Below are positions 42,462-52,482 of a DNA stretch of 64,000 nt, in pieces. Below the pieces are notes generated by a model. It had not been told where the DNA came from, made no database searches, and worked only from the letters and a program-made list of their open reading frames with translations. Every line of letters starts with the position of its first letter. Positions within the stretch are counted from its first letter, which is position 1. The position numbers were made by a program, and so were the translations under genes. Source of the DNA: an uncultured bacterium (GTDB lineage Bacteria > Actinomycetota > Acidimicrobiia > Spongiisociales > ZC4RG35); the NCBI GenBank assembly GCA_963785075.1, contig CAWATW010000004.1, positions 571,001 to 635,000 of the forward strand. The letters are read 5' to 3'.

Positions 42462-43357
42462 TTACGCGGCTTGGTCGTGTGTCTTGGTTTGACGGTACTG
42501 GTCCTCCCATCCGATCGGGGTCTGGTAGCCGAGGCTGGAGTGGAGCCGTCGGGTGTTGTATCGGTTGATCCAGGCGAAGATCGCCCGACGGGCCTCGGCT
42601 CGTGTCGTGAAGCTGATGCGCGAGACGAGTTCTCGTTTGAGGGTCCCGAACCAGGCTTCGGCCACGGCGTTATCCCAGCACACCCCGGTCCGTCCCACCG
42701 ACTGGACCATCCCGGCCTGGTCCAAGACGGCGGCTGTCTCTCCTGCCAGGTATTGGGATCCACGATCCGAATGCAAGATGATCCCTTCCACGTCGCCGGC
42801 TCGGATCCCGACGGCCATGTCTATCGCCGACGTGACCAGACTGGCTCGCATGTGGTCGGCCATTGAGTAGCCGAGCAGCCGTCTCGAGCCGATGTCCACG
42901 ACGGAGGCCAGATACAGCCAGCCTTCCCAGGTCGGGATGTAGGTGATGTCCGAACACCACGCCCAATCCGGGGCGCCCGGGGTGAACCGGCGGGCCACCA
43001 GGTCGGGGACCTTGGGACGCTCCTCTGTCGAGACCGTGGTCCGCACGAACCGCTTCTTCGGGATCCCCACGATGCCATGTTCCCGCATGAGCCGTTCCAC
43101 CCGCTTGTGGTTCACGTCCCAGCCTGGTTCCCCAGCTCCACGATCATCCTGGGCGACCCCACCGTGTCGTCTTCCCGATGGATCTCCCGCATCGTCTCGA
43201 CCAACCGAACCTCCGCCAGTTCGGTGGTGGTCGGCCCGGCCGCCACCCGGGTCTTCCACTCGTAGAAGGCTTGGCGGGACACCCCCGCCACTCGACACGC
43301 CTGCCTGGTCGGGAATCCATCGGCCTTCCGGGCAGCCACCCACCGATAGCGGGTCAC
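42462..43357 (-). pseudogene. IS3 OrfB integrase-core transposase, frameshifted near 43120
   Basis: WCSDITY, HSDRGSQY, DNAVAEAW DDE motifs; the N-terminal part (43112-43357) is in another frame. Confidence 0.85.
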
Positions 43358-43659
43358 TGTCCCGACTCCTTCACCCAGAAGGCCGTCGCTCGTTTGAGTA
43401 GGTCTCGTTCCATCCGCAACCGGGCGTTCTCCCGGCGCAGCTCGGCCAACTCCGCCCTCTCAGACGTCGTCAACCCCTCGCGCTCGCCCCGATCGATCCG
43501 GGCCTGCTTAACCCAGTTCCCCAGCGACGTCTCCCCGATCCCAAGACTCCGGGCCACGTCGGCGATTGACCTGCCCTCATCGAGCACCATCGCCACCGCG
43601 TCCTTCTTGAACTCGGGAGAGAACGATCGCCGTCTCCTCACCGGCTGATCCTCAGTCAT
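43354..43659 (-). CDS. IS3 OrfA (HTH) transposase
   Basis: RRSFSPEFKKDAV..SIADVARSLGI..LRRENARLRMERDLLKRATAF; GTGA overlap with orfB. Confidence 0.9.
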   Translation of the reverse strand: MTEDQPVRRRRSFSPEFKKDAVAMVLDEGRSIADVARSLGIGETSLGNWVKQARIDRGEREGLTTSERAELAELRRENARLRMERDLLKRATAFWVKESGQ

Positions 43660-43749
43660 GATCCCCATCATCTACCACCTCTCTATCGAGGTGTCCGGTC
43701 AATGGGGGGAGGCCCAGGGGTCTGAGGGTCGCCCCCAGTTGTGGCTTCG

Positions 43750-44761
43750 AGCTGCGGATTCCGAAGGTGCGGGAGGGTGCGGTCTTCCCGTCGTTGTTGG
43801 AACCTCGCCGTCGGGTGGATCGGGCGTTGTGGGCGGTGATCATGACCGCCTACGTGACCGGCACCTCAACGAGGAAGGTCGACGACCTGGTCAAAGCACT
43901 CGGAGTGGACTCGGGGATCTCCAAGTCGACCGTGTCGAGGATCTGTGAACAGCTCGACGAGGAGGTGGCAGCGTTCCTGGATCGGAGCCTGGATCACATC
44001 GCCTTCCCGTATGTGTTCGTTGACGCCACCTACCTGCACGGCCGCAAAGACCACCGGGTCGTCTCTCGGGCGGTGGTGGTGGCCACCGGTGTCGCCGCTG
44101 ACGGCAACCGAGAAGTCCTCGATCTGGACGTCGGGGACACCGAAGACGAGGTGTTCTGGACCACCTCTCTGCGCCGACTCCGCAAACGAGGACTGTCAGG
44201 GGTGGTGTTGGTGATCTCTGACGCTCACACGGGTTGAAAGCAGCCATCCGCAAGACCATGTCCGGATGCAGCTGGCAGAGGTGCAGAGTGCATTTCATGC
44301 GCAACCTGCTGTCCAGGGTTCCCAAGGGTCACGCCGAGATGGTGGCCGCCACCGTCAGAACCATTTTCGCTCAACCCGACCCGGCATCGACCCGGGACCA
44401 CCTGCGGCTCGTCGCCGACATGCTCAGAGAACGCCACCCCGCCGTCTCCGACCTGCTGTTGGAGGCCGAGGCAGACGTCACTGCCTACGCCGGATTCCCA
44501 CCATCGCATTGGAAGAAGGTGTGGTCGACCAACCCGCTCGAACGGCTCATGCGAGAAATCAAACGCAGAGCAGACGTGGTCGGGATCTTCCCCGACGACA
44601 ACTCCATCCTCCGCCTCGTCGGAGCCGTCCTCTCAGAACAACACGATGAGTGGCAGGTCACCGACCGCCGATACCTGTCCGAAGAATCAATGGCACTCAT
44701 CGGAACCATGCACCAAACTCACACCGACAAGGAGGTGAACCAACTCCCCGCCACCGGATAG
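43750..44761 (+). pseudogene. IS256-family transposase, 5'-truncated and frameshifted near 44234
   Basis: VFVDATY, VISDAH, WQRCRVHF, STNPLERLMREIKRR, IFPD. Confidence 0.9.
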
Positions 44762-44819
44762 GCGGGACAACGCTGAGGGTTCACCTACTTACACCACGCC
44801 GCTCAGTGTGATGATTCCT

Positions 44820-44990
44820 CGGGTCAGCGCGATGCTGATGATCGTGTTGCTGGCTCGCTCAACCACTCCATGCCCTTCGGTGGCCTGGTCCCGTCTTGCG
44901 GCCAGCAGCACGATGTGGACCGGCCGGCGTGGCTTGATAGGAGCGTGGCGTCGCCCCCACTGAGGTGTGCCCACCGACCGGTCCTGTCAC
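44820..44990 (+). ncRNA. Predicted IS110 bridge RNA
   Basis: 5' hairpin 44824-44838; stem 44841-44858/44898-44914 enclosing target guides; stem 44917-44933/44969-44984 enclosing donor guides; guides match the element junctions. Confidence 0.8.
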
Positions 44991-45015
44991 CGTTCAACAG
45001 AAGGGCAACAGGACC

Positions 45016-46064
45016 ATGATCATGCTTGGTATCGATGCGCACAAGCGCACCCATACCGTGGTCGCTGTCGACCACCTTGGCCGTCAGCTCGGCTCGAGAC
45101 CACGACTGCGACCACCACTGCGGAGCATCTGGCGATCATCCGTTGGGCCGACCAGTTCGGCGCCGAGCGCTGTTGGGCGGTCGAGGACTGTCGGCACCTG
45201 TCTCGTCGGCTTGAACGCGACATGCTCGCAGCGGGGGAACGGATCGTGCGGGTGCCACCCAAGCTGATGGCACACTCACGCGACTCGGTCCGTACCTACG
45301 GCAAGTCCGATCCGATCGACGCCCTCGCCGTTGCACGGGCCGCGCTCCGCGAACCGGACCTCCCGACAGCCCATGTCAACAATCAGGCTCGCGAGCTTCG
45401 ACTGCTCGTCGATCACCGAGAAGACCTGGTAGCGGAACGGACCAGGCACATCAACCGGCTCCGCTGGCACCTCCATGACATCGACCCCACATGGGAACCA
45501 GACCTGCGTGCGCTCACCACGTTCAAGCACCTCGACATCGCCGCCGGCAGGCTCGCCGGGCTCGACAGCGTGATCGCTCGCATCGCAGCCGATCTCGTCA
45601 TTCGTATCCGCCAACTCACCATCGACATCAACAACATGCGCGCCGAACTCGAAACCCGAACCAAGACCACAGCACCGAATCTGCGCCGCATCCACGGCGT
45701 GGGACCTCTGGCCGCCGCGAAACTGATCGGCGAGGTCGCCGGTATCGAACGCTTCAAATCCCGCCACGCATTCGCCCGTCACAACGGCACCGCCCCGACA
45801 CCGGTCTGGTCTGGCAACACCGACCGTCAACGGCTCAGCCGCGCCGGGAACCGACAACTCAACGCCGCCATCCACCGGATCGCACTCACCCAGGCCCGAT
45901 CACACCCAGACGCCATCGCCCTTCTCGCCCGAAGAACCGATGCTGGCGCCACCCGCAAAGAGGCGCTCCGATCACTGAAACGGCGACTCTCCGATGTCGT
46001 GTTCCGAGCCATGCTCGCCGACGCTGCGCTCACCCAACACCACGCCACCCCACACGCCGCTTGA
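45016..46064 (+). pseudogene. IS110 DEDD recombinase/transposase, frameshift near 45095
   Basis: MIMLGIDAHK (first frame), WAVED, KSDPIDA, GVGPLAAA, APTPVWSG, GNRQLNAAIH. Confidence 0.88.
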
Positions 46065-46267
46065 CATAGGAGAGAGGGGACGTTCCCCGCGTCGGTCGTA
46101 GCGATCGGAGCAAGGGCGAATCGAAGGCGGCTGGATCCGTCACGAAGCCGCGACGAGCGCGTTGCAGAGCCGAGCAAGCGTCGGTGATCCGGCTGGCCCG
46201 TCAGGCGTACGTCGGCTGACGGGGTGGTCCCGAGAGGTCTCTGCAAGACGTGTGGCAGGCTGGGTGC

Positions 46268-46500
46268 GTGCGGCTCACGATCATCGGCTCCAACCTGCCC
46301 GGCCGCGCCTTCTGTCGACCCGATGGCACCCCGATGGACAACGTCCACGTCAAGTACAAGTCCGGTGCGGGCCATCCCATCTCGTCCCCGCCGACACCGC
46401 CCAGGCGAAGTGGGAAGTCGAGGTCGACGTCTTCGATCGTGACGGCAACGAACGACTTCCGCGGCCCCGCCGTGCAGGGCCAGCCAGGGGAGCGCGATCC
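46268..46500 (+). pseudogene. Degenerate DUF5990-like fragment
   Basis: RLTIIGSNLPGR..NVHV / VQVR..VPADTAQAKW / DFRGPAVQG spread over frames; family call is from memory. Confidence 0.45.
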
Positions 46501-46512
46501 GGGACAGGCGAG

Positions 46513-46746
46513 ATGCTCAATCCTCGAGAGGTGGAGATCCTGAGCGAGATCGCAGGCGGCAGTTCTCGACGCGAGGCAGCCCGCTCCCTTCACCTCTCCA
46601 TGAACACGGTCAAGTCCTACCTGAGGACCGCATACCGCAAGCTGGGTGCGACCGACCGCTCAGAAGCCTTGCGCCGAGCGCGCGAGCTCGGCATCGTCAC
46701 CCCTTGCCAACCATTCTTTCGAATCGCAAGCCTCCCCAGAACCTGA
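46513..46746 (+). CDS. Stand-alone LuxR-type HTH domain (possibly a remnant)
   Basis: LNPREVEILSEIAGG..AARSLHLSMNTVKSYLRTAYRKLG..R.EA. Confidence 0.75.
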   Translation: MLNPREVEILSEIAGGSSRREAARSLHLSMNTVKSYLRTAYRKLGATDRSEALRRARELGIVTPCQPFFRIASLPRT

Positions 46747-46982
46747 GCTGCGGCGAGACCCCTCCCAAGCGAACCCGAACCTGTCGTCCTCGATAGGACC
46801 AAGACGGGTGACGTCGCCACGTCGCAGCTCACCCGCGACGATACCGCCCGCAGCACCTTCTGAGTCGACGGAGGCGAGCCCGGCAGCCAATAGCGTCGAA
46901 CTCGTCGCTGGAGGCGAGACAATGAAGACGTAGGATTCATCAGGCATCGGACGGCAACCGGCCGTGGCGAGCTCTATCACCT

Positions 46983-47234
46983 CTACCGGCGGCCGCGACG
47001 GCGCACGACCCCGATCCCGAACCAGACCAGTGCGCCCACCAACGCCGTCGTGAGCGTCATGACCCAGACCGGCGAAGACAGGTCCCAGAAGAGAAGTTTC
47101 ACGGTCACCCGCCCGGTGTTCTGGAACATGAAGACGACGAGCAACACCAGCCCGGAAAGCGCAGCGATGGCCCCAGCGCTCATCCGGGCGGTGTCTTCGC
47201 TGCCCTGCTGTGCAGTGACCTGATCTTGTGGCAT
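46983..47234 (-). CDS. LapA/DUF1049-like small two-TM membrane protein
   Basis: LLVVFMFQNT..VTVKLLFW...second TM, basic tail. Confidence 0.7.
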   Translation of the reverse strand: MPQDQVTAQQGSEDTARMSAGAIAALSGLVLLVVFMFQNTGRVTVKLLFWDLSSPVWVMTLTTALVGALVWFGIGVVRRRGRR

Positions 47235-52192: not shown

Positions 52193-52468
52193 CACCGGTC
52201 TGGTCTGGCAACACCGACCGTCACCGGCTCAGCCGCGCCGGGAACCGACAACTCAACGCCGCCATCCACCGGATCGCACTCACCCAGGCCCGATCACACC
52301 CAGACGCCATCGCCCTTCTCGCCCGAAGAACCGATGCTGGCGCCACCCGCAAAGAGGCGCTCCGATCACTGAAACGGCGACTCTCCGATGTCGTGTTCCG
52401 AGCCATGCTCGCCGACGCTGGGCTCACCCAACACCACGCCACCCCACACGCCGCTTGACATAGGAAAG
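52193..52468 (+). mobile_element. 3' fragment of a second copy of the same IS110
   Basis: Near-identical to about 45799-46074; ends TTGACATAGGAAAG followed by AGGGGAC. Confidence 0.9.
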
Positions 52469-52482
52469 AGGGGACACGATCC

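What the first reader, a model, noticed from the sequence alone, without database searches (positions are those of the whole stretch)
44802..45015. Readable IS110 bridge RNA with four guides matching the element's own junctions
Seen: the left non-coding end pairs by eye into a 5' hairpin (44824-44838) and two stems, each enclosing a large internal loop with a small hairpin. Loop 1 has ACCACTC (44862-68), 6/7 to the left flank ACCACGC (44793-99), and GTCCCGT (44888-94), whose reverse complement ACGGGAC is 6/7 to the right flank AGGGGAC (46075-81). Loop 2 has ATAGGAG (44937-43), 7/7 to the element right end (46066-72), and CACTGAG (44958-64), the exact reverse complement of the left end CTCAGTG (44802-08). 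A 2-nt core separates the arms (CG at the left junction, AG at the right). Known: this is the target-loop/donor-loop layout of the IS621 bridge RNA. Inference: an actinobacterial programmable recombinase with symmetric 7+2+7 sites and a non-CT core.
Basis: partly seen in the sequence, partly recalled or inferred. Interest (0 to 1): 0.88.

Follow-up and report, generated by a model that had tools for sequence, protein, structure and literature searches.

The report
Bridge RNA of a broken IS110
This stretch encodes the guide ("bridge") RNA of an IS110-type jumping gene that landed in the tip of another jumping gene; it is a genuine but fairly ordinary member of a system described in 2024, and this copy's enzyme gene is broken.

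Summary
It is a real IS110-group bridge RNA. A covariance model built from 14 homologous left ends finds the same two-loop RNA upstream of the transposase in 39 loci. Its stems show compensatory changes in 35 of 43 pairs. The loop-1 guides track the flanking DNA across 16 guide lineages (0 of 100,000 permutations reach the observed match), while the loop-2 guides and the element ends stay constant.

The site geometry needed correcting. Eleven uninterrupted IS256-family right ends show a 15-nt target, ACCAC-N4-C|GGGAC, in the IS256 terminal repeat, with no duplicated core. The element is 44803-46076. The AG AG after ATAGGAG belongs to the element. The real partner of GTCCCGT is GC (44801-02) plus GGGAC (46077-81). 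No CT core exists, and the dinucleotides 5' of the crossover differ between donor (AG) and target (GC/AC). A -35 box in the right end and a -10-like box in the left end would form a promoter only on a circle.

This copy has a one-base deletion in the transposase, and the genome holds no intact copy. Verdict: a new member of a known kind, of moderate interest.

The parts
43767..44761 (+). Remnant of an IS256-family (Mutator-type) transposase gene, in two overlapping ORFs and lacking its first ~83 profile positions
   Evidence: Pfam PF00872, profile positions 84-236 and 238-377 of 379. Only one copy in the genome.
44793..44802 (+). Left half of the target: inner part of the IS256 right terminal repeat (ACCACGCCGC), ending at the crossover
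   Evidence: Homologous uninterrupted IS256 ends read ACCA[C/A]-N4-C directly followed by GGGAC (10 of 11) or GCGAC (1 of 11). LTG matches 7 of 9.
44803..46076 (+). IS110-group insertion sequence, 1,274 bp: TCAGTG...ATAGGAGAGAG
   Evidence: Boundaries from empty sites and from the point where 14 right junctions and 12 left junctions diverge.
44803..44808 (+). Left terminus TCAGTG (right donor half), partner of the RDG
   Evidence: Conserved as TCAGT[G/A]T in 31 of 31 loci tabulated. Reverse complement of 44959-64.
44810..44815 (+). -10-like hexamer GATGAT, preceded by TGT; it lies 17 nt from the -35 box only when right and left ends are joined
   Evidence: 30 of 31 loci have A at position 2 and T at position 6 of this hexamer at a 17-nt spacing. 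No promoter-like site was found in the integrated arrangement.
44823..44839 (+). 5' hairpin; part of a ~20-nt tandem duplication of the left end that is absent from some lineages
   Evidence: Fold. L043, L045, L046 and L047 lack it, and L038 and L041 carry TCAGTGT twice.
44841..44914 (+). Target-binding loop module: stem 44841-58 / 44898-914 closing the loop 44859-97
   Evidence: In 39 sequences, 16 of 17 pairs of this helix show changes on both sides and 94.5% of cells are paired.
44862..44871 (+). Left target guide (ACCACTCCA plus U), same sense as the left flank
   Evidence: 7 of 9 to 44793-801. Across 16 guide lineages the own-flank match is 8.31 of 10 against 4.12 for other flanks, 0 of 100,000 permutations.
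44872..44884 (+). Small hairpin inside the target loop
   Evidence: Pairs 44872-74 / 44882-84. 98.3% of cells paired (helix 3).
44888..44896 (+). Right target guide GTCCCGT (44888-94) followed by CU (44895-96, handshake-like)
   Evidence: The reverse complement ACGGGAC matches the pre-insertion target GC (44801-02) plus GGGAC (46077-81) at 6 of 7, and 7 of 7 where the target has A. The reverse complement of CU is AG, as at 46073-74. Lineage test.
44917..44984 (+). Donor-binding loop module: stem 44917-33 / 44969-84 closing the loop 44934-68
   Evidence: Helices 4-6 have 12 of 13 pairs with changes on both sides.
44937..44944 (+). Left donor guide ATAGGAG(C), same sense as the right end
   Evidence: 7 of 7 to 46066-72; shuffle frequency 0.0049. 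Conserved across the clade.
44958..44964 (+). Right donor guide (C)ACTGAG, complementary to the left terminus
   Evidence: Reverse complement of 44802/03-08; shuffle frequency 0.011.
45016..46064 (+). IS110-family DEDD/Tnp transposase gene, broken by a one-base deletion between 45096 and 45097
   Evidence: Pfam PF01548 and PF02371. NCBIfam NF033542 at 150.8 bits against a cut-off of 140. Gap relative to 8 of 8 orthologs. Intact orthologs are 349 aa.
46061..46066 (+). -35 box TTGACA, overlapping the stop codon
   Evidence: Present in 31 of 31 loci.
46066..46076 (+). Right terminus: left donor half ATAGGAG plus four element-borne bases AGAG
   Evidence: Absent from empty sites. The homologous four bases are constant within multi-copy elements while the flanks differ and are absent from the orthologous empty site.
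46077..46081 (+). Right half of the target (GGGAC) from the IS256 terminal repeat
52193..52470 (+). 5'-truncated second copy of the same element (last 278 bp), again followed by GGGAC and ACGATCC, an IS256 tip
   Evidence: 99% identity to 45799-46081. Sequence. Pfam PF02371 on the fused ORF.

Best explanation
44803-46076 is an IS110-group insertion sequence. Its left non-coding end (about 44822-44985) encodes a bridge RNA of the IS621 type.

Shown by comparison:
- The RNA has two stem-closed internal loops.
- Loop 1 carries a 9-10-nt guide in the sense of the left target half and a 7-nt guide complementary to the right target half.
- Loop 2 carries guides for the element's own right and left termini.
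- The natural target of this lineage is a 15-nt site, ACCAC-N4-C|GGGAC, inside the terminal inverted repeat of IS256-family elements, 11-12 bp from their tip.
- Insertion occurs at the bar and duplicates nothing.

Inferred from the IS621 mechanism:
- The element leaves as a circle, or as one strand of one. The joint puts the -35 box of the right end 17 nt from a -10-like box in the left end, which switches on the bridge RNA.
- Recombinase tetramers hold one RNA loop on the joint and one on the target.
- The top strands are cut just 5' of TCAGTG and of GGGAC, then swapped.
- The two to four RNA bases 3' of the right target guide then pair with the incoming donor end (AGAG).

This particular copy is most likely dead. 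Its transposase has a one-base deletion, its IS256 host is itself a wreck, and the only other copy is a 278-bp stump.
For: Family:
- Pfam PF01548 and PF02371.
- NCBIfam 'IS110 family RNA-guided transposase' above its cut-off.
- Tnp domain related to ISCro4 and IS621 chains.

Structure:
- The consensus fold of 14 left ends has 11 pairs with compensatory change.
- Model R1 finds the RNA upstream of the transposase in 39 loci at E<=1e-4.
- On these, 92.7% of cells pair, against 75.9% in shuffles (0 of 500) and at most 45.8% when slid. 35 of 43 pairs change on both sides.

Guides:
- LTG against own left flank scores 8.31 of 10, against 4.12 for other lineages' flanks (16 lineages, 0 of 100,000 permutations).
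- RTG against own right junction scores 8.44 against 4.47 (16 lineages, 0 of 100,000). This also holds for the six purely target-derived positions (4.94 of 6 against 2.19, 0 of 20,000).
- Over all rows extracted, 28 of 32 LTG rows and 27 of 31 RTG rows match at 7 of 10 or better.

Boundaries:
- 11 of 11 empty IS256 ends.
- An orthologous empty site for a second lineage.

Promoter halves: 31 of 31 and 30 of 31 loci.

Decay.
Against: - No RNA or recombination was observed for this element.
- The only expression hint comes from relatives in metatranscriptome contigs, which cannot show ends or strand.
- Within the window alone, the two target-guide matches are no better than chance (0.32 and 0.44).
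- Four LTG rows fit poorly without gaps: L008 4/10, L041 4/10, L044 4/10, L048 5/10.
- Two RTG rows reach only 6/10 (L115, L098). Two more (L010, L009) were mis-extracted by my pattern.
- Rfam has no matching family.
- The four guide 'core' positions do not name one common dinucleotide, unlike IS621. The last steps of the mechanism are therefore inference.
- The alignment used for pair counts was fitted to the model, which favours the structure.
Confidence: 0.93

Rival explanations
1. The left end is only a structured 5' leader or a set of transposase-binding subterminal repeats, and the guide-like matches are coincidence.
For: Within the window the two target matches are at chance level. Loop-2 motifs are invariant, so by themselves they could be protein-binding sites. 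A possible alternative pairing of 44980-84 with 45011-15 next to the start codon hints at a leader function as well.
Against: Loop-1 segments change together with DNA that lies outside the element, in 16 lineages. They also match the six target-only positions. A leader or protein site has no reason to track the flanks.
Confidence: 0.02
2. The copy in the window is still active. The one-base gap would then be an assembly error, or be bypassed by ribosomal frameshifting.
For: The break is a single base in an otherwise well-conserved gene (84% identity to P0001 in alignment A1; 86% by tblastn). The bridge RNA scores highest of all hits (178.8 bits). No read evidence covers the site: the DNA run laid has no depth at 45057-45107.
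Against: 8 of 8 orthologs have the extra base. The neighbourhood is a graveyard of broken insertion sequences. IS110 transposases are not known to me to use programmed frameshifting (recalled, not searched).
Confidence: 0.12
3. Recombination here is the conservative IS621 type around a shared 2-nt core. The apparent lack of a common core would come from my placing the crossover wrongly, or from directional repair of a mismatched heteroduplex.
For: In about half of the other lineages, the base just 5' of the crossover is C in both donor and target (for example CAAC with ...GC or ...AC). This resembles IS621, where the second core base is the conserved one (PMC11208158, passages). Two registers of LTG against flank occur, so boundaries may be off by one base in some loci.
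Against: In the two lineages with true empty sites, the two bases on either side of the crossover share nothing. Donor AG|TC against target GC|GG; donor AC|TC against target GG|CC. All 14 main-clade right junctions and 10 of 12 left junctions show the same arrangement.
Confidence: 0.3

Closest known systems
IS621 (E. coli) recombinase with its bridge RNA (Durrant et al. 2024, PMC11208160; Hiraizumi et al. 2024, PMC11208158; passages and one section read)
   Same: - DEDD plus Tnp recombinase, with the RNA in the left end.
- 5' stem-loop, then target loop, then donor loop.
[quoted passage not shown]
- RNA bases 3' of the right target guide match the donor's last bases (handshake).
- The crossover lies immediately 5' of the right half-sites.
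- The promoter is split between the right and left ends.
   Different: - Only a remote protein relative (E 8e-7, Tnp domain only).
- No CT at either junction.
- The donor and target dinucleotides 5' of the crossover differ.
- Four donor bases between ATAGGAG and the crossover are covered by the target loop's 3' extension rather than clearly by the donor guide.
- The target is another insertion sequence's terminal repeat rather than a REP element.
ISCro4 / IS622 bridge recombinase (bioRxiv 10.1101/2025.05.14.653916, passages read; PDB 9t56)
   Same: Best solved relative by sequence (E 3.4e-8). Same guide and handshake logic.
   Different: The engineering rules there require matching CT or GT cores in donor and target. 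The natural sites here do not match.
[quoted passage not shown]
   Same: An IS110-family element whose natural target is the terminal repeat of another mobile element.
   Different: IS1111 group: RNA in the right end and long subterminal repeats. Here the right end is 12 nt past the stop codon and the RNA is in the left end.
CazIS110-1 and IS621 single-strand pathways (bioRxiv 10.1101/2025.10.25.684509 and 10.64898/2026.08.31.748434, abstracts read)
   Same: They report copy-out and predominantly top-strand insertion. The junctions here are what top-strand products of unlike cores would look like.
   Different: Those are experiments on other elements. Here there is only the sequence record.
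Mycobacterial IS900/IS901/IS902-type IS110 elements
   Same: Actinobacterial IS110 members with strict site and orientation preference near start codons. Several sister lineages here sit between TAG... and CATG.
   Different: The window's lineage targets IS256 ends. No comparison of sequences was made.

Membership tests
IS110 family transposase | N-terminal RuvC-like DEDD domain | tested here: met
   PF01548 on both pieces: profile 1-23 on 45016-45096 (17.4 bits, below the cut-off on its own) and profile 26-153 on 45093-46061 (63.1 bits, cut-off 29).
IS110 family transposase | C-terminal Tnp domain (Transposase_20) and whole-protein family model | tested here: met
   PF02371 at 65.3 bits. NCBIfam NF033542 at 150.8 bits for the window's fragment and 188.7 for ortholog P0001, cut-off 140.
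IS110 family transposase | Catalytic D-E-D-D and serine residues in place | tested here: inconclusive
   The alignment to ISCro4 pairs GID, SDPIDA and WSGN stretches with the corresponding ISCro4 stretches. I did not map each residue to the published catalytic numbers.
IS110 family transposase | Uninterrupted reading frame | tested here: not met
   One-base gap at 45096/97 relative to 8 of 8 orthologs.
IS110-group bridge RNA (IS621 type) | Non-coding RNA in the long left end, upstream of the recombinase gene | tested here: met
   The left end is 213 nt and the right end is 12 nt past the stop. Model hits lie upstream of the gene in 39 loci.
IS110-group bridge RNA (IS621 type) | Two internal loops closed by stems that are kept by compensatory change | tested here: met
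   35 of 43 pairs change on both sides; 0 of 500 shuffles reach any of the five measures.
IS110-group bridge RNA (IS621 type) | First-loop guides covary with the target flanks | tested here: met
IS110-group bridge RNA (IS621 type) | Second-loop guides match the element's own ends (donor) | tested here: met
   7/7 and 7/7, with shuffle frequencies 0.0049 and 0.011. Both are conserved across the clade, so no covariation could be seen.
IS110-group bridge RNA (IS621 type) | The same core dinucleotide (CT in IS621) in donor and target, repeated at both junctions | tested here: not met
   Empty sites against occupied sites in two lineages: nothing is duplicated. The bases 5' of the crossover are AG (donor) against GC/AC (target), and AC against GG.
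IS110-group bridge RNA (IS621 type) | Handshake bases: the 3' extension of the right target guide complements the donor's last bases | tested here: met
   Positions 1-4 after ATAGGAG match the RTG extension at 3.50 of 4 in the own lineage against 2.28 in others (0 of 20,000). In the window, CU (44895-96) faces AG (46073-74).
IS110-group bridge RNA (IS621 type) | [quoted passage not shown] | tested here: met
   By sequence only: TTGACA, a 17-nt spacer, then [C/G]ANNNT in 30 of 31 loci.
IS110-group bridge RNA (IS621 type) | The RNA is made and directs recombination | not testable with these tools
   Only contigs of relatives in three RNA libraries. No assay.
IS1111 group / seekRNA | RNA in a long right end and 7-17-bp subterminal inverted repeats | tested here: not met
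   The right end is 12 nt and the structured RNA lies in the left end. Only a 5-bp repeat TGACA/TGT[C/G]A flanks the donor.

The most novel reading that the evidence does not exclude
In this Actinomycetota clade of IS110 elements, donor and target need no common core. The two bases 5' of the crossover differ (AG against GC/AC; AC against GG in a second lineage). Every natural junction seen is the product expected from exchanging the top strands alone.

If so, the sequence record of wild insertions supports top-strand-only (copy-out, paste-in) transposition. It would also point to bridge recombinases free of the matching-core rule that now restricts site choice in genome engineering.
Probability: 0.3. 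Interest if true: 0.6.

Novelty: new member of a known kind. Interest (0 to 1): 0.4.

Why it matters
Bridge RNAs have been known since 2024 and were predicted in most IS110 elements, so finding one more is not news, and this copy is dead. The surrounding analysis has some value.
- It gives a compact, well-resolved natural series: one constant donor (ATAGGAG...TCAGTG) with at least 16 different target guide sets.
- It gives true empty sites for two lineages.
- It shows a clear habit of landing in other insertion sequences (IS256 terminal repeats; the end of IS3-type orfA).
- Its junctions lack a shared core.

If the missing core reflects the chemistry rather than my boundary calls, intact orthologs such as the 349-aa proteins of L031 or L032 would be worth testing as recombinases without the CT/GT core constraint.

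Tried and rejected
- **Rfam at E<=1 over 44000-47000:** no family.
- **Empty site in the own genome:** neither flank, nor the IS256 gene, has another copy.
- **Genomes holding L031 and L032:** only the interrupted IS256 copies.
- **Guessed pattern for the IS256 left repeat in the window:** one match at chance level, far away.
- **IS256 relatives on plasmids:** too distant to align at the tip. They did show the same repeat design and another IS110 beside an IS256 on a Rhodococcus plasmid, with only a weak model hit (21.4 bits, E 0.054).
- **A CT core read as ATAGGAG-CT-CAGTG:** rejected, because no CT stands at the right junction.
- **A 16- or 18-nt target containing both junction dinucleotides:** rejected by the empty sites.
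- **Dinucleotide-preserving shuffle script:** timed out and was replaced by mononucleotide shuffles.
- **Read laying:**
  - The DNA run has no cover at the frameshift, so the gap could not be checked.
  - RNA-library contigs of 208-238 nt from three studies cover relatives' left ends (44783 or 44821 to 44991 or 44998) and stop before the start codon.
  - Contigs cannot show RNA ends, and the conserved donor loop attracts many fragments, so I count this as a weak hint only.
- **Paper search for IS110 + IS256 + inverted repeat + target site:** 25 papers hold all four terms and 15 were listed. By title and abstract start, none addresses IS110 insertion into IS256 ends. None was read, so I cannot say it is not in print.
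- **Supplementary tables of Durrant 2024 and Perry 2025:** these list predicted elements, boundaries and cores and could not be seen. They may already include this clade.

Full report
**1. The observation.** All ten motifs stand at the stated coordinates. Folding 44802-45016 alone gives -98 kcal/mol (z = -2.46; 4 of 200 shuffles fold as well). It shows a 5' hairpin at 44823-39 and two long stems, each closing a large loop with a small hairpin. In 20,000 mononucleotide shuffles of 44809-45015:
- the two perfect donor matches recur with frequency 0.0049 and 0.011;
- the two 6/7 target matches recur with frequency 0.32 and 0.44;
- all four recur together once.

By itself the window therefore makes a case for the donor loop only.

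**2. The element.** The ORF starting at 45016 carries the DEDD domain and the Transposase_20 domain of IS110. It passes NCBI's model for 'IS110 family RNA-guided transposase'. Its closest solved relatives are ISCro4 and IS621, over the Tnp domain only. The frame breaks because one base is missing between 45096 and 45097, relative to 8 of 8 orthologs aligned. Intact orthologs are 349 aa. The genome (95.6% complete) holds this copy, a 278-bp stump at 52193-52470, and only distant IS110 relatives. Upstream lies a broken IS256-family transposase gene. Beyond that lies an IS3-type orfA.

**3. Homologs and structure.**
- Relatives came from one scan of genome contigs (2 loci), one scan of metagenome contigs (14 loci) and a protein search of 401 genomes of the phylum (25 genomes with a match, 30 loci).
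- Fourteen left ends align well. Their consensus fold has the two stems, and 11 pairs are kept through changes on both sides.
- A covariance model of the 148-nt core (window 44839-44986) finds one strong hit per element, upstream of and on the strand of the transposase gene, in 39 loci at E<=1e-4. E-values from this model are rough.
- On that alignment, 92.7% of cells pair, against 75.9% in shuffles (0 of 500) and at most 45.8% when partners are slid. 35 of 43 pairs change on both sides.
- The alignment is fitted to the model, which favours it. The short helix that pairs the two donor guides with each other shows no change on both sides and is unsupported.

**4. Guides and flanks.**
- Most close relatives share the window's guides. 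L046 and L047 do not, and their flanks change with them.
- From 45 element rows I extracted by pattern the 10 nt before UG[C/U]C in loop 1, the 11 nt before the closing stem, and the junctions.
- Of all rows where both could be read, 28 of 32 left-guide rows and 27 of 31 right-guide rows match at 7 of 10 or more. The misses are L008, L041, L044 and L048 on the left, and L115, L098, L010 and L009 on the right. In L010 and L009 my pattern took the wrong segment.
- Taking one row per distinct guide set, the left guide matches its own flank at 8.31 of 10 against 4.12 for other lineages' flanks (16 lineages, L008 included; 0 of 100,000 permutations).
- The right guide matches at 8.44 against 4.47 (16 lineages; 0 of 100,000).
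- Rows left out of these sets were further copies of a guide set already represented, and rows in which a guide or a junction could not be extracted.
- The signal holds for the six positions that are purely target DNA (4.94 of 6 against 2.19; 0 of 20,000).
- The loop-2 guides and the termini hardly vary across the clade. For them there is identity but no covariation.

**5. Boundaries and target.**
- In six loci (window, L031, L032, L039, L040, L048) an IS256-family transposase gene ends about 40-75 nt before the IS110 left end. In L043 the IS256 gene lies on the other strand, as expected for insertion in the left repeat.
- A search of 401 genomes of the same order gave 11 uninterrupted right ends of related IS256 elements. 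One of these, L068, comes from a genome flagged as unpublished (G050); the result stands on the other ten.
- All 11 read ACCA[C/A]-N4-C followed at once by GGGAC (10 of 11) or GCGAC (1 of 11), then about six more bases of IS256.
- Occupied sites read ACCA[C/A]-N4-C|TCAGTG (10 of 12 left junctions) and ATAGGAG-AGAG|GGGAC (11 of 14 right junctions, with three near variants).
- So the target is 15 nt, nothing is duplicated, and the element is 44803-46076. 44800-02 is target and 46073-76 is element.
- The window's pre-insertion site was 44793-44802 followed by 46077-81. The left guide matches it at 7 of 9. The reverse complement of GTCCCGT matches GC+GGGAC at 6 of 7.
- A second lineage confirms the rule with true orthologous empty sites. 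L092 reads ...TAGTATCGGG|TCAGTG...ATAGGAGAAAC|CCATGCC, and two sister genomes read TAGGATCGGG|CCATGCC.

**6. Core, handshake, promoter.**
- In IS621 all four guides include a CT core present in donor and target. The top strands are cut just after it. The two RNA bases beyond each 3'-side guide pair with the other DNA after exchange (PMC11208160 and PMC11208158, passages).
- Here the left and right target guides overlap on the target's last two bases before the crossover (GC or AC), as in IS621. The bases after the right guide complement the donor's last bases (3.50 of 4 in the own lineage against 2.28 in others).
- However, the donor's last two bases (AG here; AC, TC, AT, AA or CA in other lineages) are not the target's. 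The left junction always keeps the target's pair and the right junction the donor's.
- That is the outcome of exchanging top strands at one point. Two preprints report predominantly top-strand insertion and single-strand excision for other IS110 elements (abstracts). Engineering work still selects sites with matching cores (passages).
- I hold this reading at about 0.3. The crossover register is uncertain by one base in some lineages, and in about half of them the base before the crossover is C on both sides.
- The right end carries TTGACA over the stop codon in 31 of 31 loci. Seventeen bases on, across the joint, the left end carries [C/G]ANNNT in 30 of 31. No promoter-like site is found in the integrated state.

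**7. Expression.** Contigs of 208-238 nt from three metatranscriptome runs of three studies cover relatives' left ends and end before the start codon. This is a weak hint at most.

**8. Verdict.** This is a genuine bridge RNA of a remote, actinobacterial branch of the IS110 group, sitting in a decayed copy.
- It meets every structural and comparative criterion of the IS621-type RNA that I could test, except the shared CT core.
- Bridge RNAs were predicted in 85.7% of catalogued IS110s (PMC11208160, section read), so the kind is known.
- The IS256-repeat target, the constant donor with many guide sets, and the unlike cores are the new details.
- One row of the 39-sequence alignment (L107) comes from a genome flagged as unpublished (G528). 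No claim depends on it.

Noticed in passing
L003 (own genome, contig C10, 2044-2343 on the minus strand) and L094 2707-3006: A sister IS110 lineage with different loop-1 guides sits exactly at the end of an IS3-type orfA (Pfam HTH_Tnp_1; the peptide ends ...NEILKAAAAFF). This clade therefore repeatedly targets other insertion sequences.
   Followed up: partly
L091, L092, L095, L097, L098, L101, L111, L112, L114, L007, L046, L047 junctions: Many other lineages have targets of the form TA[G/A/C]NNTC...|...CATG. They appear to sit between a stop codon and a start codon of neighbouring genes. This recalls the mycobacterial IS900 group (recalled, not checked).
   Followed up: no
window 44803-44839; L038 129-170; L041 479-520: The main clade's left end begins with a ~20-nt tandem duplication of itself (TCAGTGT occurs twice in L038 and L041). 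Lineages L043, L045, L046 and L047 lack it, and with it the 5' hairpin.
   Followed up: partly
window 46062-46066 and 44807-44811: A 5-bp subterminal inverted repeat brackets the donor site: TGACA in the right end and TGTCA in most left ends (TGTGA in the window). It resembles the short STIR described for IS110-group elements.
   Followed up: no
window 44980-44984 with 45011-45015: In the single-sequence fold, the 3' strand of the donor-loop stem (GGTCC) can instead pair with GGACC just before the transposase start codon. This is a possible switch between RNA folding and translation. It is not conserved in all relatives.
   Followed up: no
L052 (NZ_CP063451.1, Rhodococcus pyridinivorans plasmid pNAPH) 1614-1874: Another, more distant IS110 family transposase starts 260 bp after an IS256 family transposase gene. 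Its left end contains CTTGATAGGAGCC. The model hit is weak (21.4 bits, E 0.054).
   Followed up: partly
window 46077-46095: After GGGAC the window lacks the GCGATC tip that ends IS256 in the empty sites and in other occupied sites. The IS256 tip here has been lost or replaced.
   Followed up: no
window 43357-43671 (minus strand) and 46162-46743: An IS3-type orfA (HTH_Tnp_1, 68 bits) abuts the truncated start of the IS256 remnant. A LuxR/GerE-type regulator ORF follows the IS110.
   Followed up: partly
L039 and L040: Two metagenome contigs carry the same IS256-plus-IS110 pair, with identical junctions but different DNA beyond the IS256 tip. The composite may have moved or been inherited as a unit, so occupied sites are not all independent insertions.
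   Followed up: no
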